From the NCBI GenBank assembly GCA_003233345.1, contig QILK01000073.1, forward strand, positions 6,413 through 70,412: a DNA stretch of 64,000 bases, read 5' to 3'. Made by a program: the position numbers and the translations under genes. Source of the stretch: Gammaproteobacteria bacterium. Lineage in GTDB: Bacteria > Pseudomonadota > Gammaproteobacteria > SZUA-21. Shown one piece after another: positions 8,991 to 25,510 of this stretch (positions are counted from its first letter, which is position 1; every line of letters begins with the position of its first letter). A model generated the notes under the pieces. It did no database searches. It worked only from the letters and a program-made list of their open reading frames with translations, and had not been told where the DNA came from.

Positions 8991-9029
8991 TCTGGCCTCC
9001 ATCTATCTGGATTTTAAGTCAGTGGAATA

Positions 9030-9248
9030 TTATCGTGCACGGAAGCTGATTCTGCCTTTGCTTAAATCGTATGGCGTTAGCTCAACCGTGACTTCGTCGC
9101 CGGTTAATATGCGAATATAATTTTTTCTCATTTTTCCGGATATATGCGCAGTCACAATGTGGCCATTTTCCAGTTCAACTCGAAACATGGTATTGGGTAA
9201 TGTTTCTATTACCTTGCCCTGCATTTTTATACAATCTTCTTTTGCCAT
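9030..9248 (-). CDS. infA: Translation initiation factor IF-1
   Basis: 72 aa ([48 protein letters not shown]...), near-identical to the canonical IF-1 S1-like fold. Confidence 0.92.
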
Positions 9249-9481
9249 ATTACACCTGAATTAAGTACTCTGTTGTTTAATAAAACTCATTCTAGAAGTC
9301 GTTTGGAATCTGGCGGAGGCACGACCAAATAACAGCAGGCATTATAATCACAGGATCAGTTAGATAACAGCGAAAGATGATTAATTTATTATGCGTTAAT
9401 ATTAAACACAATATTTTAGTAAATCATATAATTCATATTAAACAGCGGCTTACAATGATTGTTTAAAAAGAGAGAGGCTTT

Positions 9482-10210
9482 TTAAGTCTCCATTAACTCC
9501 CAGCGATTATTAATATATTGCTCAATGGGGCGGTATTGCTTTTTATAGCTCATTTTTGGGCATTCGTTAATAAGATAACCGAGGTATAGATAGTTGAAAC
9601 CCTGGTTCGCGGTTTCCTGTATTTGCCACAAAATGGCATATCCACCCAAACTATGTTTAGCAAGATCAGGATCAAAAAATGTATAAACTGCAGAGTAGCC
9701 ATCTTCCAGTTTATCCATGACAGCGACAGCAACCAGTTTATTGGCAAGATGAAATTCAATAAAAAAAGTTTGCGTCCAATGACAGGTTAGCATTTCCATA
9801 AATTCCCGAGGCTCTGGGTTGTCCATGCCACCATTTGGGTGACGGTTGTTGACGTATTTTTCATACAGGCTGAAATGTTCTTGGTTAAATTCGGGGAGGC
9901 GAATGGTCGCTTCGATTTTGCTGTTTCGTTTCAGAATTCGGGACTGGCCTCGATTAGGACTAAAGTTTTTGACGGGAATTCGAACGGGTATGCAAGAGGA
10001 GCAAAACTTACAATGCGGGCGATAAACCAGTTCACCACTTCTTCGAAATCCGGAGTAAATGAGCTGGCTATAGATATGATTGTCAAACCGTACCAATGGC
10101 TGCGCATAGATTTCCTGGCTGAATTTTCCAGGTAAATAACTGCAAGGGTGCTCGCCGGAAAGAAAGAGCGTTATTTTATCAGTAATATAGTCTGGCTTGT
10201 CTGAATGCAC
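9482..10210 (-). CDS. bpt: Aspartate/glutamate leucyltransferase (arginyl-tRNA-protein transferase-like, Bpt)
   Basis: 242 aa with an N-terminal CxxC...CxxC pattern (HPCSYLP...CKFCSSC) and a C-terminal ATE domain. Directly downstream of aat, as in many Proteobacteria. Confidence 0.75.
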   Translation of the reverse strand: MHSDKPDYITDKITLFLSGEHPCSYLPGKFSQEIYAQPLVRFDNHIYSQLIYSGFRRSGELVYRPHCKFCSSCIPVRIPVKNFSPNRGQSRILKRNSKIEATIRLPEFNQEHFSLYEKYVNNRHPNGGMDNPEPREFMEMLTCHWTQTFFIEFHLANKLVAVAVMDKLEDGYSAVYTFFDPDLAKHSLGGYAILWQIQETANQGFNYLYLGYLINECPKMSYKKQYRPIEQYINNRWELMET

Positions 10211-10932
10211 TAGTCCTCCATCAGCGTATTGAATGAATAAGCAATATCAGTATGCCAAAAACCGCGTTTGCTGGAACCACGGTATTCATCCAGTAGCTGT
10301 ACAAATTTTTCTCTGGGAATATCGATCGCACCAAATGAATCTAGATGCTCTGACTTAATTTGGCAATCAATCATTTTGTAACCCCATATTTTTAGCTGCT
10401 TGACCAGACAGACAAACGCAACTTTTGATGCGTCGCTTACCCGGCTAAACATGGACTCCCCAAAAAAAATATGGCCGAGCGCGATGCCATAAAGCCCACC
10501 AACCAGTGATTCACCCTCCCATGCTTCGATAGAATGTGCGTATCCGTGTGCATGCAAGTGTTCATAGGCTTTAATCATATCGTAGTTGATCCAGGTATTT
10601 GCATCACCCTTTCTCGGTTCGGCACAAGCACGAATAACATCGCTAAAAGCACGATCGGTGGTCACCGAAAGCACTTGCTTTTTTAAGGTCTTTTTCAAAC
10701 TGCGGGAGATTTTGATGGCCTCCGGAAATAAAACAGATCGTGGATGAGGTGACCACCACAAAATAGGCTCGCCTTCCGAATACCAAGGAAAAATACCCTG
10801 ACTGTAGGCGCTTAGTAATCTATCTTTTCCCAAGTCACCTCCCGTTGCCAATAAGCCATTGGGATCGTCATTAGCCAGCGTTACACTGGGAAATTCGTCA
10901 TCATTCTGAATTAAATATACGTGCATTGTCAC
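10210..10932 (-). CDS. aat: Leucyl/phenylalanyl-tRNA-protein transferase
   Basis: 240 aa with the GIFPWYSEGEPILWWSPHPR motif characteristic of Aat. infA-aat adjacency is conserved. Confidence 0.85.
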   Translation of the reverse strand: MTMHVYLIQNDDEFPSVTLANDDPNGLLATGGDLGKDRLLSAYSQGIFPWYSEGEPILWWSPHPRSVLFPEAIKISRSLKKTLKKQVLSVTTDRAFSDVIRACAEPRKGDANTWINYDMIKAYEHLHAHGYAHSIEAWEGESLVGGLYGIALGHIFFGESMFSRVSDASKVAFVCLVKQLKIWGYKMIDCQIKSEHLDSFGAIDIPREKFVQLLDEYRGSSKRGFWHTDIAYSFNTLMED

Positions 10933-10963
10933 CGCTGGTAATATTGATGAAGTTGTTCTTACT

Positions 10964-11181
10964 AATTATTTGACAAAATGGCTGGAATATCAATACTCTT
11001 TGAAAATGTTTTGAAAAACTAGGTAGATACAGGGGAAATCAGGTTTTGGTGCTAAATCGATTCTTGGGAAATAAACAGGTTACGGTATTTTTCAGATAAA
11101 TCGTGATATTCTGAGCCATATTCCATTGCATTTTCATTCATTCGATCAACCCAGAATTCGCCAACAATGGCCCAATCAGCA
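10964..11181. repeat. Direct repeat, copy A (about 217 bp, about 93% identical to 12674-12889)
   Basis: By-eye alignment: copy A (attatttgacaaaatgGCtggaatatcaatactctttgaaaatgttttgaaaAactagg ... ccaacaatggcccaatcagc) matches copy B at 12674-12889, with only a handful of mismatches. Confidence 0.85.
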
Positions 11182-11288
11182 GAATAAACCAGCGTGTACG
11201 GCCAAAGACCGTATGTAAAAGGTGGTATGGAGGCCACAATGACAAGCGCTAATGATTGAAGAATGATGACACTACCAAAGCTAATCAA
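11052..11288 (-). pseudogene. Truncated 3' gene fragment duplicating the C-terminus of the 208-aa protein at 12760-13386
   Basis: The C-terminal 45 aa (ADWAIVGEFWVDRMNENAMEYGSEYHDLSEKYRNLFISQESI) are almost identical to the end of ORF 12760-13386. The N-terminal part diverges and has no counterpart, so the fragment was created by the repeat. Confidence 0.55.
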
Positions 11289-11481
11289 GTAGGCTTATGG
11301 TATTCGAGTGGTTGTGCTAGCAGCCAGAATGAGTGTGTTAAGGAAATATTAAAAGGCGCTGCGGAGAAAAGGCGCACTCTACATCCTACCTATAAGAAAA
11401 AGCTCCACACGTATTGCAATAAAAAATTTAGTAAATAATAAAACGAGTATTTGTATCGCAAAACGTTAATGTGGAGCTTTC

Positions 11482-11742
11482 TTATGGCGCAACTGAGCAA
11501 TCATCCATATCGTATTCATCGAAGACGATCTCTACTACGGCATAGGGCGGGCCATTGAACCAGCTGGAGTTGTCGCTGATCTCGGTTTGCATAACCCGTT
11601 TCTGGCCATTGATCTTGAGACGTGTCACGACATGCGGCTCCAGGCAAATCGCTACCACCACCCGCGACCCGATATCAGTACAGCGCCACCGCTTATTACC
11701 GCAGAGAAATTCATCGCCGATAGAAAAATCCTTAAGCTTCAT
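11482..11742 (-). CDS. Hypothetical protein (86 aa)
   Basis: Clean ORF inside the repeat-flanked cassette; no recognisable motifs. Confidence 0.4.
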   Translation of the reverse strand: MKLKDFSIGDEFLCGNKRWRCTDIGSRVVVAICLEPHVVTRLKINGQKRVMQTEISDNSSWFNGPPYAVVEIVFDEYDMDDCSVAP

Positions 11743-11806
11743 AGTCTTTGATTAATACCGAATGCTCGAGCGCTTAGGGTATTTGGCACATTAAATTTAT
11801 CTCCCT

Positions 11807-12481
11807 TCATTCTTTTTGACTAATAAGAGTGGAAATATATGATTTTCTGTTACTCAAAAAGGTCATTAGTTCTTCGGGATAATCCTTTTTTACAGCTACC
11901 TTTACAGATTGACGAGAATTTAAAGCTTTGCGATAAGCCAGAACTCTAGGTGTCTTATCAAACACCGCAAAATCTGATATTTTTTCAAAAGTATCAAAGT
12001 ATCGAAATACTGTTGGATAAACGGAATCGACCAGATGAAATTTTGCACCGGAAAAAAAAGAACCCTCTTCAATATTACTTTCAAGTTGTTCAAATTTAGT
12101 CATTAAAAAATTACGCCGTTCTTCAAATTCAGCATAACTAGTCGCACTATAAAATTGCCCTATTACATCCAGAATTGATGAACCAAATTCAATCCAAGAA
12201 CGATGTTTGGCTCTTTGAATCGGGTCACTAGGGTGCAAACTCTCAGATGTTATTTCATTTAAAAATTCGCAAATAACAGCCGACTCGAAAATGACCTCGT
12301 TATCAACTATTAGTAGTGGAACTTTAGCAAGAGGGGACATCAATTCAAACCAGTCAGGTGTATTAGATAAATCGATGTACGTTCGTTTGTGAACAATGTT
12401 TTTTTCTTCAAGAACAATAATTGCTCGTTGTACATAAGGGCAGAGATTGTAACTCACTAATTCTAAATTATACTGAAGCAT
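11807..12481 (-). CDS. Glutathione S-transferase family protein
   Basis: 224 aa. N-terminal thioredoxin-like GST fold (SYNLCPYVQRAIIVLEEKNI...KVPLLIVDNEVIFESAVICEFL) followed by a helical C-terminal domain. Confidence 0.7.
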   Translation of the reverse strand: MLQYNLELVSYNLCPYVQRAIIVLEEKNIVHKRTYIDLSNTPDWFELMSPLAKVPLLIVDNEVIFESAVICEFLNEITSESLHPSDPIQRAKHRSWIEFGSSILDVIGQFYSATSYAEFEERRNFLMTKFEQLESNIEEGSFFSGAKFHLVDSVYPTVFRYFDTFEKISDFAVFDKTPRVLAYRKALNSRQSVKVAVKKDYPEELMTFLSNRKSYISTLISQKE

Positions 12482-12673
12482 GTTGTTTTCCTATTAACTT
12501 AACGTGTCAATTCAATAAAAACTTATCTACGGTAACAGCACAAGTTCGAATCAATTCTTCACCACTAGTCTCTCCATTGATCGCCTATACTTCTCTGTCT
12601 TCTTCTCCCGCATACTTTACCCCAGGTAAATCATTGAGGGCTTTGAAAATTACTTGGTAAAGATCACTTCCGA

Positions 12674-12889
12674 TTATTTGACAAAATGGGCGGAATATCA
12701 ATACTCTTTGAAAATGTTTTGAAAGACTAGGCAGATACAAGGGAAACAAGGTTTTGGCGCTAAATCGATTCTTGGGAAATAAACAGGTTACGGTATTTTT
12801 CAGATAAATCGTGATATTCTGAGCCATATTCCATTACATTTTCATTCATTCGATCAACCCAGAATTCGCCAACAATGGCCCAATCAGCG
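12674..12889. repeat. Direct repeat, copy B
   Basis: See copy A. Copy B contains the genuine 3' end of the 208-aa gene at 12760-13386 and about 85 bp downstream of it. Confidence 0.85.
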
Positions 12890-13386
12890 ATATTCATTTC
12901 ATATTGAGCAAGAACGTGATCTTTTTCCAGTCCGCGTTCGGAGGCAATATCAATATGCTCGATTATTTTTACCCACTTTTTAAATGAAACAGGATTAATT
13001 TGATTTTTGCTATTGCTTATGGATTTTGTGGCTGCAGATTTATCTTCGCTACAAAGGACTTGATTGCTTTGATAAGTGCGGCTAGCCGCGACAAAGGCCT
13101 GACTGTAGAGCATCGCAATATCCGCAGATTGATTGCAACTCATTCTTTTTAACCATTCTGAATTAACGGCTTCCCAGGCAATATCATTGAGCCCAGACTC
13201 ATTCAGTATTAGCTCAAGCTTTTCATTATTGGCAAGACGTGCATTGATGTTCGCCCAGGTTTGCAATGAAATTCCCATATAAGATTGTATTTCGCTACAG
13301 GCTTCTTGTTTGCTTGACGCTAGCTCTGTGTGTTGGTTGATTTTGGCATCGTTAAGAAAAGCCTGAAATTTGTCCTTCATGGTCAT
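12760..13386 (-). CDS. Hypothetical protein (208 aa)
   Basis: Long ORF with no recognisable motif. Its last about 45 codons are duplicated at 11052-11186. Confidence 0.55.
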   Translation of the reverse strand: MTMKDKFQAFLNDAKINQHTELASSKQEACSEIQSYMGISLQTWANINARLANNEKLELILNESGLNDIAWEAVNSEWLKRMSCNQSADIAMLYSQAFVAASRTYQSNQVLCSEDKSAATKSISNSKNQINPVSFKKWVKIIEHIDIASERGLEKDHVLAQYEMNIADWAIVGEFWVDRMNENVMEYGSEYHDLSEKYRNLFISQESI

Positions 13387-13832
13387 GGCTGGCTCCTTGT
13401 GTGTCTAATGTCGAATCTATAGTTAGTATCGTCGGATTAAACTTATGCCACGAACAGAAATAGTGACTAATATACTGAATTTATATTTAATTTATTATTT
13501 GAAATAACCTGAATAACATAAGGTTAACGTTAACACGATTTTAGAATAATCTGCATATATTTATGGCCAAAAAGAGCTAGCTAGACCGTTAATTATGCCA
13601 ATAGTGAGCATATAACCCACTATCCCGATTTAAGATCGGTTTTAATCTCAACGGGTAGTTTGCGATACCCTTATTATAATTTTCAAGAGTGTTCTCGAAA
13701 GCCTTTTTGGATTTGGAAAATATTTCATATTATCCAATATTTTTTTCAGTTAGACTTAAGCTATAGTGAAGGGGGTAACTCGTGTTATTTATTTAGAAAA
13801 ATTTTATTAACGGAAGCATTAAATACAAAAAT

Positions 13833-15842
13833 ATGGATATTAAAAAAACAGGTTTTGTGCGTTGCGGGATTATCGGTAGCTTCTTGTTTTTAAGTTTTTC
13901 GTTAATGGCAGCAGATGCGATAAGCAACGCAAAAAAAGCCACCCGTCTTGGACAATATAAAAAAGCATTTGAAATATTCTTATCAGCAGCACAAAAAGGT
14001 AATATCCCCGCTCAGTATCATGTCGGAACATTGTATTTGAATGGCAGAGGAATTAAAAAAGATATTAATGCTGGTGTAAAATGGACTCAGCATGCTGCGA
14101 ATGATGGTTATCCGCGAGCCCAGTATTATCTGGGAACGTTATATAATAATGGTGAACATGTAAAGGTTAATGTCAAGCTAGGAAAAAAGTGGCTGGGAAA
14201 AGCCGCTAAACAAGACTATGCACCAGCGGTCGCTAAGCTTAACGAACTGGATGAAGCGCCAGTGCATGCCCATCAGAAAAAATCGCAAGTGATGCAAGGG
14301 ACTCGCGAAGATAAAATTATTGTGGCTGTTCGCAGAGATAAACTGGATACAGTCAAAATATTACTTAGTTCAGGCGTTTCGGTCGACACCGTTGATACAG
14401 CCAGTCACAAAACGTTATTAATGATTGCGGCAGAAAAAGGGCATAATGATATTGTGTCTTTCCTATTAAAAAATCGGGCCGATGCGAGCAAAAAAGATAA
14501 AACAGGCGGAACGGCGCTTAACCATTCAATACGTAATAATCATACCAAGGCTGCGTTCCTTTTAATTCAGTGGGGTATTAAAATTGATGAACCTAACATC
14601 TATGGTCAGACGCCACTGATTATATCTGTTAAAGCTAAAAAGCTTTTACTGGTCAAAGCATTGGTCGCGAAAAAGGTTAATCTTAATAGCGTCGATAAAA
14701 AGGGTAACACCGCTCTTGACTATTCTCGTATGCTCGAACGGAAACAGATAGAGAAATTTTTATTGGATCATAAGGCGATCGCAAAAAGTACCTTGTCTAT
14801 TGTTCGCACTAACAGTAGCAATATCACCCGTGTTACGCCAACTTATAAAAACTGGACTTTATTGCTGGAGGCTTCCTGGCGAGGACAGGAAGGTTTGGTT
14901 AGCAGATTGTTAAAAAAAGGTGTGAGTATTAATAGCACCGACGAAGATGGTTATTCTGCGCTTATCCGTGCATCCTGGAAAGGGCATTTGCACATCGTGG
15001 AGATTCTGGTTGATGCCGGTGCGGATATTAATTATAAGCAAAAAAGAGGGTTGACCGCACTAATGCTGGCGGCAAAGCATAATCACGTAGAGGTCGTTAA
15101 TTATCTGCTAGCGAAAAACGCCAATGTTGAGCTACGGGATAATTCGGGGTCTAATGCCGTTATTATGGCCACAAAAAATAACAGCATAGATTCACTCAAG
15201 CGTCTGATCCGTGCCAAAGCCGATTTAAACACACGCGATAAAAGTAAACTAACGGCGCTTATGTGGGCGTCACAGAATAATAGTGTCACCATCAGTAAAA
15301 TGCTTGTGCATGGTGGTGCTCGAGTGGATATGCATGATAATAAAAGACAGGTTGCCTTGTGGCACGCAGCGCTCGCTGGATCAGAAAGGGCCTTTGATTA
15401 TTTGATGACAATAAGAATTGATATCAATAGTAAAAACAACGAAGGTGATACATTGTTAATGCGAATGGCCACTTCAGGTAAAGTGAGTATTGTTCGAAAA
15501 TTAATTAGGCGTGGTGCATCAGTAAGGCTAAAAAATAATATTGGTGATACGGCGTTAATGGCTGCCAGCGGGAAAAATAGACTAAAGGTAGTGCAAATAT
15601 TATTAACAGCCAGGTCTGATGTTAACGTAAAAAATAATATTAATAATACTGCGCTGATGATCGCGTCCAAAAAAGGCCATAGTCAGATGGTCAATTTATT
15701 GTTAAAGCATAAAGCCAGGGTCAGGATTCGCAATAAAGACAAAAAAAATGCAAGGGAACTGGCTCAGCAGGGTGGATTCAAGCGTATTGCCAAAATATTA
15801 GAAAAACATGAAAGCAATGGCGGGTTATTCGGTATTTTTTAA
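13833..15842 (+). CDS. Secreted Sel1-repeat / ankyrin-repeat fusion protein
   Basis: 669 aa with a signal peptide (FLFLSFSLMAADA). About 4 Sel1 repeats (AQYHVGTLYLNGRGIKKDINAGVKW; AQYYLGTLYNNGEHV...), then at least 12 ankyrin repeats with the recurring G-TALM-A---GH---V--LL--GA-VN pattern. Confidence 0.8.
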   Translation: MDIKKTGFVRCGIIGSFLFLSFSLMAADAISNAKKATRLGQYKKAFEIFLSAAQKGNIPAQYHVGTLYLNGRGIKKDINAGVKWTQHAANDGYPRAQYYLGTLYNNGEHVKVNVKLGKKWLGKAAKQDYAPAVAKLNELDEAPVHAHQKKSQVMQGTREDKIIVAVRRDKLDTVKILLSSGVSVDTVDTASHKTLLMIAAEKGHNDIVSFLLKNRADASKKDKTGGTALNHSIRNNHTKAAFLLIQWGIKIDEPNIYGQTPLIISVKAKKLLLVKALVAKKVNLNSVDKKGNTALDYSRMLERKQIEKFLLDHKAIAKSTLSIVRTNSSNITRVTPTYKNWTLLLEASWRGQEGLVSRLLKKGVSINSTDEDGYSALIRASWKGHLHIVEILVDAGADINYKQKRGLTALMLAAKHNHVEVVNYLLAKNANVELRDNSGSNAVIMATKNNSIDSLKRLIRAKADLNTRDKSKLTALMWASQNNSVTISKMLVHGGARVDMHDNKRQVALWHAALAGSERAFDYLMTIRIDINSKNNEGDTLLMRMATSGKVSIVRKLIRRGASVRLKNNIGDTALMAASGKNRLKVVQILLTARSDVNVKNNINNTALMIASKKGHSQMVNLLLKHKARVRIRNKDKKNARELAQQGGFKRIAKILEKHESNGGLFGIF

Positions 15843-16971: not shown

Positions 16972-17050
16972 TGATCGTTGCCAAGTTATAATTAATGGAA
17001 AGTAATTAAATGACGGCTCAATTGTGGTAAGTGATATCGTTAGAGCTAAA

Positions 17051-18619
17051 ATGTCTATTTATATTAAAAAATTTTTGACGATAGTCTTAATACTGTCCTC
17101 TTTTATTTCACTCAATGCATTTGCTGACCGGGTCGAAGCGTTTGTGATGCCGGGTGAGGTGATTAAAGGGCATGCCAAGCTGGAAACCAATTGTGTCAAG
17201 TGTCACAAACGATTTGATAAGAAAGCACAAACTCGATTATGTCTGGATTGCCATGATAAAATAGACGCTGTTATGAAAAAACGTAGTGGCTTTCATGGAA
17301 AATCACCGATTGTTAGGAAGAACCTGTGTAGTGCGTGTCACACTGAGCATAAAGGCCGCGATGCTGATATCATCAAGTTGGATAAACGTAATTTTAATCA
17401 TAAATTCACCAACTTTCTACTTAAAGGCCAGCATAAGAAACTTGATTGTAACAGTTGTCACCAAGCCGGTAAGAAATATACAGAGGCAAAATCGACAGTT
17501 TGTTATGGCTGTCATAAGAAAGATGACAAACACAAATTACACCTGGGTAAAAAGTGCGAAAAGTGTCACACGGAACAAAAATGGAAAAAAACCAAGTTTG
17601 ATCATGATAAAACCAAATTTAAGCTGACCGGAAAACACAAGGAAATTGTATGTGAAAGTTGTCATGCTAACGAGCGATATAAAGGTATCCCAACGAAGTG
17701 TGCAACTTGTCATAAGATTAATGATGTTCATAAGGGTAAATTAGGCGACAAATGTGACGAGTGTCATACCACCAAAAGTTGGGGGAAAATGTCATTTGAT
17801 CATGATAACGAAACTGAATTTCCGATACGAGGAAAGCATAAACAACTGAAATGTAAGGCTTGTCATAAAAAAGACCCCAAAGACGAGGAACTTGCAAAGC
17901 AATGTTACGCCTGCCATAAAGTTGACGATAAACATAAAAGTAATTTTGGCCAGAAATGTCAAACGTGTCATAGCGAAAAGGGGTGGGATCACTCGAAGTT
18001 TGATCATGACCGGGATACTAAGTTTCGATTGAAAGAAAAGCACACCAAGGCAGATTGCACAGATTGTCATAAAAAACCTTTGTACAAAACCAAGACCAGC
18101 AGCAAATGTTATAGTTGTCATAAAATCGATGATAAACACAAAGGCAGTCAGGGTAAGAATTGCCAGAAATGTCATAACGAAAAAAATTGGAAATCAAAAA
18201 TTGCCTTTGATCATGATTTTACTAAGTTCCCGCTGGTTGGATTACATGCGCTGGTAAACTGCAAAGAATGTCATACGCAGGAAAGTTTTTCCGCTACCAA
18301 AAAAAGCTGTATCAGCTGCCATAGGAAAAAGGATGTACATAAACTAAGATTGGGGACTTTTTGTGAATTATGTCATACCCCAAATGGATGGAAAATCTGG
18401 AATTTTGATCATGACCGGCAAACTGAATATCCATTAAAAGGTAAACATAAAGGTCTTAATTGCATTAAATGTCATAAACGTCCCGTGAACAAAAAGAGTA
18501 TAAAGTTGGACGCAAACTGTTCAAATTGTCATAGTCAAGACGATCCTCATGATGGAAAGTTTGGTAGCAGTTGTGCAAGTTGCCACAAAGTGTCTTCTTT
18601 TAAGGACATAGATATTTAG
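17051..18619 (+). CDS. Multiheme c-type cytochrome: 21 CxxCH motifs in seven triheme c7-like modules, lysine-rich
   Basis: The track ORF starts at GTG 17024, but ATG 17051 gives a classical signal peptide (MSIYIKKFLTIVLILSSFISLNAFA). I hand-counted 21 CxxCH motifs. There are seven repeats of about 72 aa, each shaped like FDHD-T-F-L-GKH----C--CH ... C--CHK-DD-HKG--G--C--CH. My count gives about 98 Lys (about 18%). Confidence 0.85.
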   Translation: MSIYIKKFLTIVLILSSFISLNAFADRVEAFVMPGEVIKGHAKLETNCVKCHKRFDKKAQTRLCLDCHDKIDAVMKKRSGFHGKSPIVRKNLCSACHTEHKGRDADIIKLDKRNFNHKFTNFLLKGQHKKLDCNSCHQAGKKYTEAKSTVCYGCHKKDDKHKLHLGKKCEKCHTEQKWKKTKFDHDKTKFKLTGKHKEIVCESCHANERYKGIPTKCATCHKINDVHKGKLGDKCDECHTTKSWGKMSFDHDNETEFPIRGKHKQLKCKACHKKDPKDEELAKQCYACHKVDDKHKSNFGQKCQTCHSEKGWDHSKFDHDRDTKFRLKEKHTKADCTDCHKKPLYKTKTSSKCYSCHKIDDKHKGSQGKNCQKCHNEKNWKSKIAFDHDFTKFPLVGLHALVNCKECHTQESFSATKKSCISCHRKKDVHKLRLGTFCELCHTPNGWKIWNFDHDRQTEYPLKGKHKGLNCIKCHKRPVNKKSIKLDANCSNCHSQDDPHDGKFGSSCASCHKVSSFKDIDI

Positions 18620-18939
18620 AAAAGGAGTATGCGTGTAGAAATAGAATATATAAGTTGTGCTTGGATTAATATTACTTTATATTAGACGCGTGTGGTTTTT
18701 TCACACCTCATAAAAATTGTTAGTGGTATATGAAGGTAGATCAGATACCGCTATTAGAGAGGTAAAGCAATAATATAAAATTGAATAGTTAAATGATTTA
18801 TTTAAGACTCTATGCTAGCAACCGAAATTTAGTGTGTATTACGCTTATGGACGAAATGAAATTATCAAAAATGTAATTTCATAAATACACAAATAATTAA
18901 CTGGGATAGGATTTCCCACAAAATAAAAAGCGATATCAA

Positions 18940-20688
18940 ATGGACACTTGGGAAAGGACGCTGTGCAGATTGCATTTGAGGGGCTATCTTAAGTTCCTAG
19001 TGCTTGTCCTGCTAACCTTTACCTTTCTCGTTATCTCAAATCCAGTTTCTGCTAAAAAAGTCACTCAGAAATTTAACCACGACAAAACCGGGTATACACT
19101 TGAAGGTATACATGTCTACGCGGATTGTGAAAGCTGTCATGCGCGTGGAATTTTTAAAGGCACACCTAGAACCTGTCAAGGTTGTCATGCACAAGCCGGA
19201 CGTATTACTGCTACACGAAAACCGATAAATCATATATCGTCATCTGCCGACTGTGGCCAGTGCCATACATCAACGGCTTGGAAACCGGCGAAAATTGATC
19301 ATTCAAAAATCACGGATTCCTGTAATAGTTGTCACAACGGCACAACAGCTACGGGTAAATCAAAGAATCATATTACCACCAATGCACAGTGTAACGTTTG
19401 TCATAGTTCACGTGCCTGGGTTCCGGCAAACTTTAATCATAGTACTATCACCAGTGGTTGTATTAAATGTCACAATGGCACAACCGCGATTGGGAAGACA
19501 AAAGGCAAACATCCGCCCTCGAGTAATAGTTGTGAGAGTTGTCACACGATCAATTCGTTTAGCTTTAATCATACCAATGTAAGGGGCGATTGCTTTAGTT
19601 GTCATAATGGTACGACCAGTGGCGGCAAGAAAAGCGCACGGCACGTCGTTAGCGACAACCGTTGTGAAGTTTGCCATAAGAATAATCGTGCTTGGACATT
19701 TACTCACGGTTCAGGCATCACCGGGTGTAGCAACTGCCACTCGGGCCAGACAAAAGGAAAGCAAAAAGGTGCCAAGCATATTGTTACCGTAGCGAGTTGT
19801 GAATCTTGCCATAAAAGTACCAGTACATGGACGTTTGATCACAGTAACGTAAAATCTGGATGTACAAATTGCCACCGGGGACAAACAGCCGGTAGGCAGA
19901 TAAACCCAGCTACTCATGTAAAAGTGGCGCCAACAGTAGATTGCGCGGTTTGTCACGGCAGTAATACATCATGGACTGTCAATGTCGTGGTAAACCATGC
20001 GAGTTTTACTGGTACTTGTAGCGGATGCCACAACAAGAACGCGACGCATATGCCTACTTCCAATAGCTGTGGTGGTTGTCATAAAACAACAAAAGGTGGA
20101 TTTCTAAAAGCAAATACCAATGTCGATCATCGGCAAATTACCGTTTCATGCCAGACTTGTCATACTGGCAAATATGCCACCTCAAAGAAAAGTACAACAC
20201 ATGTTGCGACGACTAACGCCTGTGCAAATTGTCACAAGTCGACTGCCCAAGGTGGTTGGCCAACGAATATAAAGATGGATCATACGCAATTGGTCGGTGC
20301 GGGTGCCTGTGCTACCTGTCATAAGACCGGTGGTGTTGGGACACCAAAGCCGCAGGTACATATGAATACCACACTGGCATGTGATATTTGCCACGACAAG
20401 ACCACGACTTGGGCTATCAGGTCGATCACTTACACCCATCAGGCCGGATTGACTCAAGGTTGGTTTAAACATGGTTCGCTTACGTCTTGTATAGACTGTC
20501 ATGCTTCCAATGGCCTTGTGCAATGGGAAACCGGTCTCTATAAGAAGTCGTGCGCTGGTTGTCATGCCAGGCAGTACGAACCGGAAAATGACCATTTACC
20601 ACCGATTACTTCGATAGAGGCTAATAAACATTGCGGTGGTACTGTACCAGGTGGTACTGGCTGTCATGGTAGAAATCGAGGGTTTTAA
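18940..20688 (+). CDS. Multiheme c-type cytochrome: 21 CxxCH motifs, Thr/Asn/Gly-rich
   Basis: 582 aa with a hydrophobic signal-like segment (LKFLVLVLLTFTFLVISNPVSA). An in-frame TTG near 18976 with a GGA before it would give a shorter, cleaner signal peptide. I hand-counted 21 CxxCH motifs. CxxCHNGTT(A)xGK and NH/KH(x5-7)CxxCH units recur, supplying the distal His needed for bis-His haems. Confidence 0.85.
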   Translation: MDTWERTLCRLHLRGYLKFLVLVLLTFTFLVISNPVSAKKVTQKFNHDKTGYTLEGIHVYADCESCHARGIFKGTPRTCQGCHAQAGRITATRKPINHISSSADCGQCHTSTAWKPAKIDHSKITDSCNSCHNGTTATGKSKNHITTNAQCNVCHSSRAWVPANFNHSTITSGCIKCHNGTTAIGKTKGKHPPSSNSCESCHTINSFSFNHTNVRGDCFSCHNGTTSGGKKSARHVVSDNRCEVCHKNNRAWTFTHGSGITGCSNCHSGQTKGKQKGAKHIVTVASCESCHKSTSTWTFDHSNVKSGCTNCHRGQTAGRQINPATHVKVAPTVDCAVCHGSNTSWTVNVVVNHASFTGTCSGCHNKNATHMPTSNSCGGCHKTTKGGFLKANTNVDHRQITVSCQTCHTGKYATSKKSTTHVATTNACANCHKSTAQGGWPTNIKMDHTQLVGAGACATCHKTGGVGTPKPQVHMNTTLACDICHDKTTTWAIRSITYTHQAGLTQGWFKHGSLTSCIDCHASNGLVQWETGLYKKSCAGCHARQYEPENDHLPPITSIEANKHCGGTVPGGTGCHGRNRGF

Positions 20689-20759
20689 TTAGAGAACGTA
20701 TATCAATTGGATCACACGGCGGTTTAGTAACAACTAGAGACTAAATAGAGCGTATAAAC

Positions 20760-23216
20760 ATGAAATCAGTCATAAGAATAGTATTGGCTTTTAGTATAAC
20801 GGTACTGGGTATCGTTAGTGGTCAAGCGCAAACTGTTACTGAAGAGTTTAACGTTTTAAAAACGCTGGAAGCACGCATTAATATTGCTGTCTCTGAATTT
20901 ACGATACATTTTAACCTGCCCGTAAACTACTTGGGTCATTCGCCAACAAAAGAAGGCAAACACATTATTATTCGTGTTGCCCCAATCGGTCGAAACCCCC
21001 GGGATGTAACCGGATTTACTTCAAGTACCGCTTTGAATAATCCAATGAGTTTTGGTGGAAGGGAAGTTTTGTCCTGGACCGCGACCAAAGAGCTGCCTTT
21101 AACGGAAGTGGAATATGAAGGCACCAATATTGGTGGACCGATTATTGAAGTCAGTTTCACGCGTAGTGTTAAATACAAAGTTGTCCCAAGTAAGGATTTG
21201 CGTAGTCTGACTATTCTGGTCGAAAACGAGAAGCAGGCAAAAAGCACATCTAAGCATAACTACTTGCTTAACCTGTCGACTTCGGGAAAACCCTTTGATG
21301 TTACCAGTTTGGACACTGGAAAATTTCCAGAAAACTATGTTTTTTTCCCTACCCATAGTGTAGTCGACAACAAGTCCGTCAATCACCTGAAAGTGGGGTT
21401 TTTTAAAACCCCAAGGGATATTCGTGAAGCCCTTAAAAAGTTAAAACCCTATTATCCAGATGCAAAGGTAATGTTATCAACGGATGAGGATATAAAGGTT
21501 GCAAAACAATACCAGCGAGATCAGAAGCTAATCGCTAAAACAACACCACTAAAAACCCCCGCCCCCGGAAAAGAATCACCGGCGATAGCAAGTAATTCGC
21601 GCGATATTATGGAAAAGGCAAAGTTTACTTTGCTAGAGGGCAATTATGATAAAGCAATTGAGCAATATACCGTCGTGATTCAAAAAGATCCGAATGGCCA
21701 ATATGCACAGGAAGCCCAGGAATACCTGGGATTAACCCGGCAGCGTAATAATCAGGTTGCCCATGCAATTGCAGAATACAAAAAATATTTGCAAAAATAT
21801 CCGCAAGGCGAGGGCGCCACGCGTGTTAAGCAGCGTCTTAATTCCTTATTAACCGCGTCACATGATCCGCGAGGGAAATTACCGGGGACTACGACGGAAG
21901 ATAAAAAATCACCTTGGCGGCTCTATGGAAATGTTTATGGTAATATCAGGTACGATAATTCTAAAACCGTTATCAAGGCTACTAATACTAAAATCAAAAA
22001 TCAGACGACCACTTATGTTACCAGTTTAAATGCGACTGCCAGAAAAAGAACAGAAAAAAGTGAGACAAAAATACGATTCACTGGTATATATCGAGATGCG
22101 GATGATGGTACAAATCGCAATAACAGAAGTGGACGCGTTAACTATTTTTATGTAGACCATAAAGATAAAGTGCGTAATTATGGTTACCGTATTGGTCGTC
22201 AGGCAAAAAGTAGCGGTGGCGTCTTGGGCCGTTTTGATGGCATATCGGTGGATTATAAAATTAGTTCGCGTTATAAGGTTAACTTCGTTTCTGGTTACCC
22301 CGTCAATTTTACCAAATTTGGACAAATTGAAACTAACCGTTATTTTTATGGTGTTAACACTGACATTTCCACCAAGAATAAATATTTGACTTTTAATGTA
22401 TTTGCTATCAATCAGGTTATTGATGGTATTAGTGATCGGGAGTCAATCGGTGGCGAGGTTCGCTATATGAACCCGAAGCACTCATTGTTTGCATTGGTTG
22501 ATTACGACCATTCTTATCAGGAATTAAATACTGTCTTCGTTTCCAATAACTGGCGCTTTAAAAATAAGGCGGTTGTTAATGTAACTTATGATTATAGAAG
22601 AAGCCCAGTATTAACAACTAGTAATGCGTTGCAAGGGCAGACGGAAGGATCAATAAAAGAGCTTTTACGTCGACTTAGCGAGAGCCAGATCAGACAGTTA
22701 GCCCGTGATCGTACGGCGACCTACAAATCGGTATCGGTGGGAGGCACTTATCCACTTGCCCATGACTTGTATCTAAACGGAAATGTTACGGTTGCTGAGC
22801 TCGAAGGTACAGTTGCGTCGGGTAATGTTGCGGCTGTTCCTGATAGTAGTCAAGAATATTTTTATTCACTACAATTAATAAAAAACAGTTGGTTAAAGGC
22901 CGGTGATGTATCAATATTTGGTATTCAGTTTGCTGATGCAACAACTTATCAGCGGACATCCTATTCGTATGGCATCCGCTATCCTCTAACACCCAGAATC
23001 CGAATTCGTCCAAAGTTTGAATATGATGTACAGGATATAAATGACGGCACTGAAGTCACTACCTACCGCCCCTCTTTACGTGTTGATTATCGTGCGAGCA
23101 ATAGATGGCGTTGGGAACTGGAAAGCGGCTATTCATATGCTGAAATCAGGAATTCTGCCAGTGACAGCGATCAGACCGATTACTTTATCAGTATGGGCTT
23201 TATTTATGATTTCTAA
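20760..23216 (+). CDS. Outer-membrane protein: N-terminal domain, TPR-like repeats, C-terminal beta-barrel (putative porin partner of the cytochromes)
   Basis: 818 aa with a signal peptide (MKSVIRIVLAFSITVLGIVSGQA). TPR-like helical repeats lie in residues about 290-370 (YDKAIEQYTVVIQKDPNGQYAQEAQEYLGLT...AIAEYKKYLQKYPQGEGAT). The C-terminal about 440 aa show alternating hydrophobic/polar amphipathic beta-strand periodicity and end in ...GFIYDF, the aromatic C-terminal residue used as a BAM signal. Confidence 0.7.
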   Translation: MKSVIRIVLAFSITVLGIVSGQAQTVTEEFNVLKTLEARINIAVSEFTIHFNLPVNYLGHSPTKEGKHIIIRVAPIGRNPRDVTGFTSSTALNNPMSFGGREVLSWTATKELPLTEVEYEGTNIGGPIIEVSFTRSVKYKVVPSKDLRSLTILVENEKQAKSTSKHNYLLNLSTSGKPFDVTSLDTGKFPENYVFFPTHSVVDNKSVNHLKVGFFKTPRDIREALKKLKPYYPDAKVMLSTDEDIKVAKQYQRDQKLIAKTTPLKTPAPGKESPAIASNSRDIMEKAKFTLLEGNYDKAIEQYTVVIQKDPNGQYAQEAQEYLGLTRQRNNQVAHAIAEYKKYLQKYPQGEGATRVKQRLNSLLTASHDPRGKLPGTTTEDKKSPWRLYGNVYGNIRYDNSKTVIKATNTKIKNQTTTYVTSLNATARKRTEKSETKIRFTGIYRDADDGTNRNNRSGRVNYFYVDHKDKVRNYGYRIGRQAKSSGGVLGRFDGISVDYKISSRYKVNFVSGYPVNFTKFGQIETNRYFYGVNTDISTKNKYLTFNVFAINQVIDGISDRESIGGEVRYMNPKHSLFALVDYDHSYQELNTVFVSNNWRFKNKAVVNVTYDYRRSPVLTTSNALQGQTEGSIKELLRRLSESQIRQLARDRTATYKSVSVGGTYPLAHDLYLNGNVTVAELEGTVASGNVAAVPDSSQEYFYSLQLIKNSWLKAGDVSIFGIQFADATTYQRTSYSYGIRYPLTPRIRIRPKFEYDVQDINDGTEVTTYRPSLRVDYRASNRWRWELESGYSYAEIRNSASDSDQTDYFISMGFIYDF

Positions 23217-24742: not shown

Positions 24743-25510
24743 ATGAATTCAAAACTTATTATTTTGTGGTTAAGCCTGGTTTTTTCATCGTACAGCCATT
24801 CGCAGAATTTATCTAATTCAACGGTGCCCGTTGCTGATAGGCTTCCTTCGGTGTCTGTAAATGACACGTCTAAGAGCAAACTTAATAGCGTTAAAGATAC
24901 ACTTAGCCCGGCTCAGTCTTATCTCAGTTGGAAGGCAGCAGCAGAAAAGGGTGATACTAATTCTCAATATAATCTGGGTCTTGTTTATGAGCAAGGATTG
25001 GGTACAGCCGTTGATCTGCAACAAGCAGCACGTTGGTATAAAAAGGCATCCATGCAGGGACACGCTGTTGCAGCATATAATCTAGCCACAATGGCTCACC
25101 AGGGCCACGGAATGAAGGCAGATATAAAAATGGCGAAGCATTGGTACGAATTTGCTGCCAAAAAAGGCTATTTACTTGCTCAGGCCAGTCTCGGGTTTTT
25201 GTATGCAACAGAAAACACACCTTTTACCGATGTAAAGAAAGCGGTTTACTGGTTTAACAGAGCGGCCAAGCTCGGTCATCCAGAGGCTCAGTTTAATCTT
25301 GGTATGATGTATTCTACTGGCAGAGGAATAGAACTTGATTATATCAAAGCTTATGCTTGGTTCAATGTATCAGGATTTAACCGTTACAAAAATGCGATTG
25401 AAAGTCGAAATTTTGCGGCCGCCCGGCTTACTGTAAAGCAACTTGAATCAGCCCAGGCTCTATCGAATCACTATCGCGAACTCTACTTTAAGAAGCAAAC
25501 GCCTAAATAG
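24743..25510 (+). CDS. Secreted Sel1-repeat protein
   Basis: 255 aa with a signal peptide (LIILWLSLVFSSYSHS). About 5 Sel1 repeats (SQYNLGLVYEQGLGTAVDLQQAARWYKKA; AAYNLATMAHQGHGMKADIKMAKHWYEFAAKKG; AQFNLGMMYSTGRGIELDYIKAYAWFN). Confidence 0.75.
   Translation: MNSKLIILWLSLVFSSYSHSQNLSNSTVPVADRLPSVSVNDTSKSKLNSVKDTLSPAQSYLSWKAAAEKGDTNSQYNLGLVYEQGLGTAVDLQQAARWYKKASMQGHAVAAYNLATMAHQGHGMKADIKMAKHWYEFAAKKGYLLAQASLGFLYATENTPFTDVKKAVYWFNRAAKLGHPEAQFNLGMMYSTGRGIELDYIKAYAWFNVSGFNRYKNAIESRNFAAARLTVKQLESAQALSNHYRELYFKKQTPK

What the first reader, a model, noticed from the sequence alone, without database searches (positions are those of the whole stretch)
10964..12889. About 217-bp direct repeats flanking a 1.5-kb cassette (GST gene plus 86-aa ORF), with a duplicated 3' gene fragment
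Copy B (12674-12889) carries the authentic last about 45 codons plus downstream sequence of the 208-aa gene at 12760-13386. Copy A (10964-11181) is a roughly 93%-identical duplicate sitting about 30 bp upstream of aat, and creates a chimeric 78-aa ORF (11052-11288).

The segment between them encodes a glutathione S-transferase and a small unknown protein. This is the footprint of an insertion or duplication by recombination, and the repeats could mediate excision or amplification of the cassette. Copy A also replaces the native sequence upstream of aat, so it may supply the aat promoter.
Basis: seen in the sequence. Interest (0 to 1): 0.55.

Follow-up and report, generated by a model that had tools for sequence, protein, structure and literature searches.

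The report
Strain-specific gene insertion flanked by duplication
A 1.5-kb piece of foreign DNA carrying a glutathione-transferase gene and a small unknown gene was inserted between two chromosomal genes of an uncultured bacterium. The insertion duplicated a 216-bp junction segment, so both neighbouring genes stayed intact; this is a real but fairly ordinary footprint of recombination.

Summary
Window 10965-11180 (copy A) and 12673-12888 (copy B) are 216-nt direct repeats with 9 mismatches (95.8% identity, blastn E 5e-98). It is the only long repeat in the 64-kb window.

Each copy holds the last 42 codons and the stop of the 208-aa gene, followed by the 87-nt intergenic stretch that ends at a promoter-like site in front of aat.

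Two related metagenome contigs are empty sites. In L081 (95-97% nt) and L082 (83% nt) the 208-aa gene is followed directly by aat, with one copy of the segment and no cassette. So the 1492-nt cassette (11181-12672) is an insertion that came with a 216-bp target duplication.

The cassette is a mosaic:
- an omega/DHAR-like Cys-GST (34% GC);
- a conserved 86-aa beta-rich protein of unknown function (51% GC);
- a strong hairpin downstream of both genes.

It has no integrase, no transposase and no terminal repeats.

Copy A is the native aat upstream region.

The most likely origin is one homologous plus one illegitimate joint, either a Campbell-type circle or homology-facilitated illegitimate recombination. 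This step is inferred, not shown.

The 78-aa chimeric ORF has no independent homolog and no ribosome-binding site.

Interest is low to moderate.

The parts
10965..11180 (-). Repeat copy A. It holds the displaced 3' fragment of the 208-aa gene (42 codons plus stop, 11052-11180) and the 87-nt intergenic segment (10965-11051), in its native position in front of aat.
   Evidence: repeat; contiguous with aat in L081, L082 and L090.
12673..12888 (-). Repeat copy B. It is the functional 3' end of the 208-aa gene plus an 87-nt duplicate of the intergenic/promoter segment, which now faces the cassette.
11181..12672 (-). Inserted cassette of 1492 nt. It is absent from the empty sites in L081 and L082. 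It has no terminal inverted or direct repeats and no recombinase gene.
   Evidence: absent in L081; L082; no terminal repeats; no other copy in the window; mosaic GC.
11807..12481 (-). 224-aa glutathione transferase with a Cys active-site motif (CPYVQR). Its closest solved relatives are omega-class GSTs and DHARs. GC is 34%.
   Evidence: Against the L087 homolog dN/dS is about 0.1 and dS is 0.36.
11482..11742 (-). 86-aa conserved protein of unknown function, a small beta-rich fold. GC is 51%.
   Evidence: 163 homologs, no Pfam domain; AF2 pLDDT 91.8; no solved relative.
11388..11488 (-). Long hairpin that starts at the stop codon of the 86-aa ORF and is followed by a U-run. It is probably the terminator that insulates aat from the cassette transcript.
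   Evidence: dG -33.5 kcal/mol, z -5.3, 0 of 200 shuffles fold as well.
11052..11288 (-). Chimeric 78-aa ORF with a TTG start: 36 hydrophobic cassette-encoded residues fused to the 42 duplicated C-terminal residues. It is probably not a gene.
   Evidence: the only full-length hit is the same ORF; no SD; Kyte-Doolittle hydropathy about 2.3 at the N-terminus.
10965..10993 (-). Sigma-70-like site TTGATA-17-AATAAT formed by the last 29 nt of copy A, 32-38 nt upstream of the aat start. Candidate native aat promoter.
   Evidence: 10 of 12 matches; the total number of sites in the region is not above chance; the block is conserved in L081, L082 and L090.
12673..12701 (-). Duplicate of the same promoter-like site at the end of copy B, 192 nt upstream of the GST start. 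It is the only such site on this strand between the 208-aa gene and the GST.
12760..13386 (-). 208-aa gene of unknown function, predicted all-helical and almost an orphan. Its 3' end was duplicated.
   Evidence: 2 homolog clusters among 5.8 billion proteins; sub-threshold DUF6620; dN/dS about 0.23; poor model.
10210..10926 (-). aat, leucyl/phenylalanyl-tRNA-protein transferase, the downstream neighbour. It is followed by ate and infA.
   Evidence: (238-aa call).

Best explanation
This is a strain-specific insertion. In the ancestor, the 208-aa gene was followed after 125 nt by aat. That arrangement is still seen in L081 and, with a 141-nt gap, in L082. In the lineage of the window a 1492-nt two-gene cassette (Cys-type GST plus an 86-aa conserved protein, followed by a hairpin) became inserted.

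At the same time, a 216-bp segment was duplicated to both sides of the cassette. This segment runs from codon 167 of the 208-aa gene to the -10 hexamer of the promoter-like site in front of aat.

Three consequences follow from the layout:
- The 208-aa gene keeps a complete 3' end (copy B).
- aat keeps its complete native upstream region (copy A).
- A second copy of the aat promoter-like site now points into the cassette, 192 nt upstream of the GST. The hairpin after the 86-aa gene separates the cassette transcript from aat.

The most likely way to get this layout is recombination with one homologous joint inside the 216-bp segment and one illegitimate joint. The incoming DNA would come from a related strain in which the cassette lay directly downstream of the 208-aa gene. 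Two routes give the same product:
- The DNA circularised and integrated by a single (Campbell-type) crossover.
- It integrated as a linear piece by homology-facilitated illegitimate recombination, with the illegitimate end landing upstream of the end of the homology. That displaces the resident 3' end downstream.

Shown here: the repeat, the empty sites, the intact neighbours, the mosaic cassette and the absence of mobility genes. Inferred: the recombination route, promoter use, terminator function, and that the 78-aa ORF is a by-product.

My confidence is about 0.85 that this is an insertion with duplication, and about 0.4 for the specific recombination route.
For: Repeat and anatomy.

Empty sites:
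- The L081 blastn blocks overlap by exactly the repeated segment and lack the cassette.
- L082 has the gene directly followed by aat.

Polarity:
- The more distant L082 is also empty.
- Copies A and B share a derived synonymous G (CTG), where L081 has A, L089 has C and L082 has A.

Foreign, mosaic cassette:
- GC is 34.1% for the GST and 50.6% for the 86-aa ORF, against 42.0% for the window.
- The nearest GST DNA (L087, 90.7% nt) lies next to a MazG-like gene in a different context. Its dS of 0.36 compares with about 0.1 for the flanking core genes.
- Homologs of the 86-aa protein sit in unrelated contexts.

No self-mobility:
- No integrase or transposase among the cassette ORFs or among the 46 larger ORFs scanned across the window (all 42 of at least 170 aa on either strand, three of 159-168 aa, and the 72-aa infA was not scanned).
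- No tRNA gene and no terminal repeats.

Promoter-like site and hairpin; the site is conserved in L082 and L090.

A donor allele fits the divergence pattern. Eight of the nine A/B differences are non-coding. Copy B's spacer equals that of L081 and L089, while copy A carries 6 private changes.

Against: - No donor with the arrangement '208-aa gene, segment, cassette' was found, so neither the homologous nor the illegitimate joint can be inspected.
- No microhomology is visible at either junction against the ancestral sequence.
- The shared derived G in A and B fits an in-lineage duplication at least as well as an imported copy.
- The promoter-like sites in the region are no more numerous than in shuffled sequence (9 found, 9.7 expected), so promoter use rests on position and conservation only.
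- All relatives are short, low-coverage metagenome contigs.
- The window itself is a metagenome-derived contig whose reads I could not see.
Confidence: 0.6

Rival explanations
1. An in-lineage replicative rearrangement with two illegitimate joints. A stalled or broken replication end switched template to a distant locus, copied about 1.5 kb, and switched back 216 nt upstream of where it had left. The segment was thereby re-replicated. This is a templated insertion flanked by a duplication, of the MMBIR or fork-stalling type.
For: - Copies A and B share a derived synonymous site not seen in L081, L089 or L082, as expected if both copies arose from one resident sequence.
- No recombinase and no terminal repeats.
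- The six private changes clustered in 35 nt of copy A could be a mutation cluster left by error-prone synthesis. That link rests on my own knowledge of break-induced replication, not on a test.
Against: - The cassette is itself a mosaic of 34% and 51% GC genes, and no second copy of any part of it lies in the 64-kb window. A single intragenomic template is therefore unproven.
- The donor locus is unknown, so microhomology cannot be checked.
- If both copies were identical at the event, copy A's coding part should have decayed along with its spacer, yet it has 0 private changes against 6 (Fisher p = 0.004).
Confidence: 0.17
2. A remnant or non-autonomous form of a site-specific integrative element that targets the 3' end of the 208-aa gene. 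It would carry its own copy of that 3' end, as prophage e14 does with icd. The two repeats would be attL and attR, and the recombinase would have been lost or would act in trans.
For: - The layout is the same as for e14 in icd. There the element supplies the 3' terminal codons, and a 163-bp pseudo-3' fragment is left as a duplicate at the other end (PMC6379469).
- The target gene stays intact.
Against: - No integrase in the cassette or in the window.
- The unit is only 1.7 kb and carries no phage or conjugation genes.
- The duplication runs 87 nt past the stop codon to the end of a promoter-like site, which restoring the gene does not require.
- The cassette was not seen at this site or as a unit anywhere else.
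Confidence: 0.07
3. An assembly artefact. The chromosome has the empty site, and the assembler threaded in a separate molecule or strain variant that carries one copy of the segment joined to the cassette. That could be a 1.7-kb circle or a different locus in a co-occurring strain.
For: - The window comes from a metagenome-derived 73.6-kb contig.
- A loop at a 216-bp repeat is a classic graph ambiguity.
- The two copies look like two alleles.
- In the ERZ508539 sample, contig L089 ends inside the segment.
Against: - Both cassette junctions must exist in reads.
- The copies differ at 9 positions, so the repeat is not collapsed.
- The variants are spaced so that ordinary read pairs could phase them.
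- A 1.7-kb circle with no replication gene could not persist on its own.
Confidence: 0.08
4. The repeat-cassette-repeat arrangement is old, and L081 and L082 lost the cassette independently by recombination between the repeats. On this view the empty sites are secondary.
For: RecA-dependent deletion between 216-bp direct repeats restores a perfect empty site, so empty sites cannot by themselves give the polarity (inference).
Against: - It needs at least two independent losses, including one in the 83%-identical L082 lineage.
- Copy A's displaced coding part has no private change, although dS along this lineage is about 0.05 per site. About 6 changes would be expected and 0 are seen (P about 0.002), which argues for a recent event.
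- It still requires the same kind of insertion event earlier.
Confidence: 0.08

Closest known systems
Campbell-type single-crossover integration of a circular DNA carrying a homology segment (as in insertion-duplication with suicide plasmids)
   Same: The product is homology segment, insert, homology segment in direct orientation. Genes that end or start inside the segment remain intact on one side each. The event is reversible by recombination between the repeats.
   Different: This is a natural event with no plasmid backbone and no replication or selection genes. A circular intermediate was not observed. The comparison rests on established knowledge, not on a test here.
Homology-facilitated illegitimate recombination and C-terminal displacement at Rhs, CDI and T6SS effector loci (PMC5361080 and the references it cites: de Vries & Wackernagel 2002; Jackson et al. 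2009)
   Same: Incoming DNA is anchored by homology in a conserved gene part and brings new downstream genes. The resident 3' end is pushed downstream and survives as an orphan fragment.
   Different: In those loci the displaced ends are divergent toxin or immunity modules, and arrays build up. Here the two 3' ends are 99% identical in the coding part, and the cargo is a GST plus a small protein. There is no toxin or immunity signature.
Prophage e14 (and phage 21) integrated in icd of E. coli (PMC6379469, citing Hill et al. 1989)
   Same: The 3' end of the target gene is duplicated (163 bp in e14, 129 nt of coding sequence plus stop here). The gene stays functional and a pseudo-3' fragment remains at the far end of the insert.
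   Different: e14 is a prophage of about 15 kb (size from my own knowledge) with its own integrase and a short crossover core. This insert is 1.5 kb without a recombinase, and the duplication extends 87 nt into the intergenic region.
Minimal mobile elements of Neisseria (Saunders & Snyder 2002; from my own knowledge)
   Same: Whole-gene cassettes without mobility genes are present or absent between the same two conserved chromosomal genes in different strains.
   Different: Minimal mobile elements are exchanged by double homologous recombination in the flanking genes and leave no flanking duplication.

Membership tests
Insertion by one homologous plus one illegitimate joint (Campbell-type circle or HFIR) | Relatives show an empty site with a single copy of the duplicated segment | tested here: met
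   L081 and L082.
Insertion by one homologous plus one illegitimate joint (Campbell-type circle or HFIR) | Direct repeats of the homology segment flank the insert, and the neighbouring genes are intact | tested here: met
Insertion by one homologous plus one illegitimate joint (Campbell-type circle or HFIR) | A donor exists in which the homology segment and the cassette are contiguous, with microhomology at the illegitimate joint | not testable with these tools
   No donor was found.
Site-specific integrative element in the 3' end of a gene (e14/icd type) | attL/attR direct repeats that include the 3' end of the target gene and restore it | tested here: met
Site-specific integrative element in the 3' end of a gene (e14/icd type) | Tyrosine or serine recombinase encoded in the element | tested here: not met
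   The cassette ORFs are a GST and an 86-aa protein with no recombinase domain. There is none elsewhere in the window.
Transposon or insertion sequence | Transposase gene and terminal inverted repeats | tested here: not met
   (terminal inverted-repeat score not above shuffles, p = 0.15).
Transposon or insertion sequence | Short target-site duplication of a few bases up to about 15 | tested here: not met
   The duplication is 216 bp.
Integron gene cassette | attC recombination site at the cassette end and an intI integrase with attI nearby | tested here: not met
   - No integrase in the window.
- The hairpin after the 86-aa ORF lacks the RYYYAAC/GTTRRRY core sites on reading the sequence.
- No formal attC model was run.
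Glutathione transferase, omega/DHAR-like Cys type (cargo gene) | Thioredoxin-like GST N-domain with a CPxxxR active-site motif and a helical C-domain | tested here: met
   - Pfam GST_N_2/GST_N_3/CLIC-like_N.
- Best solved relatives are GSTO1 (E 2.4e-22) and DHARs.
- The motif CPYVQR is read at residues 14-19.
- Activity was not tested.

The most novel reading that the evidence does not exclude
The duplication is not a passive scar but part of how a tiny recombinase-free cassette installs itself. It would carry a copy of the host gene's 3' end plus the neighbour's promoter. That would let it integrate by homology without harming either neighbour, borrow the duplicated aat promoter for its own GST operon, and remain excisable or amplifiable as a 1.7-kb unit.

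Alternatively, the 78-aa ORF is a newborn gene: a membrane-anchored copy of the conserved 42-residue C-terminal module of the 208-aa protein, kept by purifying selection. It has 0 private changes in 129 nt, against 6 in the adjacent 87 nt.
Probability: 0.08. Interest if true: 0.55.

Novelty: new member of a known kind. Interest (0 to 1): 0.25.

Why it matters
It is a clean natural example, with empty-site controls, of how bacteria add accessory genes between core genes without any mobile-element machinery and without damaging the neighbours. The duplicated segment preserves the end of one gene and the promoter region of the next.

Such repeat-flanked cassettes are also natural substrates for RecA-dependent loss or amplification. 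The GST may therefore be a variable-copy trait in the population.

Beyond that it does not open a new question. The cargo is ordinary and the structure fits textbook recombination.

Tried and rejected
**Searches for relatives**
- The genome-contig scan with aat returned only distant relatives (63% aa identity or less).
- Exact look-ups of window proteins found nothing on record.
- The metagenome scan with the 208-aa protein returned only the contig already known as L089.

**The chimeric ORF and the ERZ508539 contigs**
- The exhaustive HMMER search with the 78-aa ORF gave only itself (P0256, TTG read as L), P0002 through the shared C-terminus, and two spurious repeat proteins. There is no independent evidence for the chimeric gene.
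- The ERZ508539 contigs cannot settle filled against empty. L089 ends inside the segment. L090 has unrelated sequence upstream of the last 28 nt of the segment and loses similarity inside aat, at about 1x coverage, so it is possibly chimeric.

**RNA, mobile-element and defence checks**
- Rfam found no match in 9000-14500 at E up to 1.
- No tRNA gene in the window.
- The plasmid collection gave only a weak GST-gene hit.
- PHROGs gave only a GST-like family of unknown function, and PADLOC gave nothing.
- The 87-nt spacer has no significant RNA structure in either copy.
- No over-represented uptake-sequence-like word in the window.
- A third 12-nt match to the promoter block at 2027-2038 looks like chance.

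**Structures**
- The 208-aa protein model was unusable (pLDDT 44).
- The 86-aa model is confident but has no significant PDB match (best E 0.15) and no sequence match to solved structures.

**Hypotheses considered and rejected**
- Integron cassette, IS or transposon, and prophage remnant; see the membership tests.
Full report
**1. The observation**

The repeat finder, a pairwise alignment and blastn of the region against the whole window agree. Window 10965-11180 (copy A) and 12673-12888 (copy B) are direct repeats of 216 nt with 9 mismatches and no gaps. Identity is 95.8%, E is 5e-98, and the spacing is 1708 nt. It is the only repeat longer than 90 nt in the 64-kb window.

All genes here lie on the minus strand. 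In gene orientation the order is:
- the 208-aa ORF (13386 to 12760), whose last 42 codons plus stop, and the next 87 nt, form copy B;
- a 1492-nt cassette (12672 to 11181) holding a 224-aa GST (12481-11807), an 86-aa ORF (11742-11482) and about 300 nt without a convincing gene;
- copy A;
- after 32-38 nt, aat (start 10932 GTG or 10926 ATG), then ate and infA.

Copy A fuses in frame to 36 cassette-encoded codons, which gives the 78-aa ORF 11052-11288.

**2. Related sequences give an empty site**

The 208-aa protein is nearly an orphan, with two homolog clusters among 5.8 billion proteins.

- *L081.* The contig encoding the 94%-identical P0001 (L081, Logan SRR25425414) carries the 208-aa gene, then aat 125 nt later, then ate and infA. 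In blastn, L081 1-867 equals window 13531-12672 (95.4%) and L081 651-2550 equals window 11180-9281 (97.2%). The segment is present once in L081 and twice in the window, and the cassette is absent from L081.
- *L082.* This more distant contig (about 83% nt) also runs from the gene's end straight into the start of aat.
- *ERZ508539.* A third sample is uninformative. L089 stops inside the segment. L090 (about 1x coverage) has unrelated sequence upstream of the last 28 nt of the segment.

Two empty sites, one of them in the outgroup, make an insertion in the window's lineage the parsimonious reading. Copies A and B also share a derived synonymous G (CTG) where L081 has A, L089 has C and L082 has A.

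**3. What the cassette is**

- *The GST.* It has a CPYVQR motif. Its best solved relatives are omega-class GSTs and dehydroascorbate reductases, and it has thousands of homologs.
- *Its nearest DNA relative.* L087 is 90.7% identical over window 12503-12042, but there it lies next to a MazG-like gene in a different context. Between the two GSTs dS is 0.36 and dN/dS is about 0.1. The flanking core genes give dS of about 0.1 between the window and L081. The GST is thus functional and comes from a more distant source than the strain-level relatives.
- *The 86-aa ORF.* It belongs to a real but unnamed family (163 homologs, no Pfam, NCBIfam, PHROG or PADLOC match). The AlphaFold model is confident and shows a small beta-rich fold (pLDDT 91.8), with no significant PDB match. 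Its homologs sit in unrelated neighbourhoods, once beside a ParE/antitoxin pair and transposases.
- *Composition.* GC is 34.1% for the GST, 50.6% for the 86-aa ORF and 42.0% for the window, so the cassette is a mosaic.
- *The hairpin.* A long hairpin followed by a U-run begins at the stop of the 86-aa ORF (11388-11488, dG -33.5 kcal/mol, z -5.3).
- *Mobility.* The cassette ends carry no inverted or direct repeats. There is no integrase or transposase in the cassette or among the 46 larger ORFs scanned across the window. These cover all 42 ORFs of at least 170 aa on either strand and three of 159-168 aa; the 72-aa infA was not scanned. The window is core chromosome: hflD, mnmA, icd, clpA, infA, ate, aat, multihaem cytochromes, rne, the fab cluster and fad genes. 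There is no tRNA gene and no Rfam match.

**4. What the duplicated segment contains**

Its last 29 nt in gene orientation are TTGATA-17-AATAAT, the best sigma-70-like match on this strand. In copy A this lies 32-38 nt upstream of the aat start. The block is conserved in L081, L090 and even L082, whose surrounding spacer has diverged strongly.

The duplication ends exactly at the -10 hexamer.

Copy B places a second copy of the site 192 nt upstream of the GST start. It is the only such site on that strand between the 208-aa gene and the GST.

The caveat is that promoter-like sites in the region are no more frequent than in shuffles (9 found, 9.7 expected). Promoter function is therefore inferred from position and conservation only.

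**5. Mechanism**

A 216-bp target duplication around a 1.5-kb insert without a recombinase does not fit three known kinds of element:
- transposition, which gives a short duplication and needs terminal repeats and a transposase;
- an integron cassette;
- an autonomous integrative element.

The layout is what one homologous joint plus one illegitimate joint produces. One route is a circle carrying the segment plus the cassette that integrates by a single crossover. The other is a linear fragment anchored by homology in the 208-aa gene, whose other end joins illegitimately upstream of the end of the homology. That second route displaces the resident 3' end downstream. Such displacement has been proposed for T6SS effector and Rhs loci (PMC5361080). 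The formal resemblance to e14 in icd, which leaves a 163-bp pseudo-3' fragment (PMC6379469), is close. However, the defining recombinase is missing here.

An in-lineage replicative template switch (two illegitimate joints) is the main rival. I could not find the donor arrangement, so the route remains inferred.

**6. An unexplained asymmetry**

Polarised with L081 and L089, the changes fall as follows:
- Copy A has 6 private changes, all within the 35 nt after the displaced stop codon.
- Copy A has none in the 129 nt of coding sequence plus stop (Fisher p = 0.004).
- Copy B has 3 private changes: one A-to-V replacement and two adjacent bases in the promoter spacer.

If copy A had been a pseudogene for as long as its spacer suggests, about 6 coding changes would be expected at dS/2 of about 0.05. 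None is seen (P about 0.002).

Four readings remain possible:
- Copy A is the native allele and copy B came in with the cassette from a donor with the L081/L089-type spacer. The event would then be recent. This fits the preferred model.
- Gene conversion has been limited to the coding part.
- Purifying selection acts on the 78-aa ORF. Only about 1.2 synonymous changes would be expected, so this cannot be rejected statistically.
- A mutation cluster arose in the spacer.

Several points argue against a functional 78-aa gene:
- It has a TTG start without a Shine-Dalgarno sequence.
- It lies downstream of the hairpin, with no promoter-like site of its own.
- No protein elsewhere shares its 36 N-terminal residues.

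In its favour, that N-terminus is strongly hydrophobic, with a Kyte-Doolittle value of about 2.3.

**7. Verdict**

The feature is real and correctly located. It is a strain-specific accessory-gene insertion with a long flanking duplication that preserves both neighbours. The kind of event is known, while this instance is undescribed. It comes from an uncultured proteobacterium known only from metagenome contigs.

An assembly artefact cannot be excluded without reads, but it is made less likely by the nine differences between the copies. Excision or amplification through the repeats is plausible and untested. Interest is low to moderate.

Noticed in passing
window 12760-13386 (-): The 208-aa protein next to aat is almost an orphan, with only two homolog clusters among 5.8 billion proteins, all from the same small group of metagenome lineages. 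It is predicted all-helical and has a sub-threshold DUF6620 match. Its dN/dS of about 0.23 shows it is a real gene. Its last roughly 80 residues are the most conserved part.
   Followed up: partly
window 11482-11742 (-); loci L083-L086: The 86-aa cassette protein belongs to a widespread family (163 homologs) with no Pfam, NCBIfam or PHROG model. It has invariant F6, F12, T22, D23, G64, P65, E71, D75 and C82, and a confident small beta-rich AlphaFold model with no PDB match. In L085/L086 it lies next to a ParE/antitoxin pair.
   Followed up: partly
L090 1-67 and 688-1497 (ENA ERZ508539): In this marine-sediment relative, the sequence upstream of aat keeps only the last 28 nt of the duplicated segment and is then unrelated. 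Similarity also stops inside aat, which is followed by a SpoU methylase gene instead of ate. This is either a second rearrangement with a breakpoint at the -35 box or a chimeric 1x-coverage contig.
   Followed up: partly
L087 (ENA ERZ508539) 312-774: A GST 90.7% identical in DNA to the cassette GST lies downstream of a MazG-like gene. It diverges abruptly after codon 147, ending in a premature stop. This is a different genomic context, and possibly a disrupted copy.
   Followed up: partly
window 10996-11018 and 12704-12726; L081 814-835: Just upstream of the -35 hexamer there is an AT-rich palindrome. It is perfect in L081 (TCTTTCAAAA-CA-TTTTGAAAGA) and has one or two mismatches in the window's two copies. 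It could be an operator for aat regulation.
   Followed up: no
window 13833-15842 (+) and 24743-25510 (+): A 669-aa protein combines Sel1 repeats with many ankyrin repeats, and a second Sel1-repeat protein lies 9 kb away. This eukaryote-like repeat architecture is typical of host-associated bacteria (from my own knowledge).
   Followed up: no
window 17024-23216 (+): A cluster of large multihaem cytochromes (cytochrome c7/c3 repeats, one with an MtrC/MtrF-like domain) is followed by an 818-aa protein with no Pfam match. This is a possible extracellular electron-transfer module.
   Followed up: no
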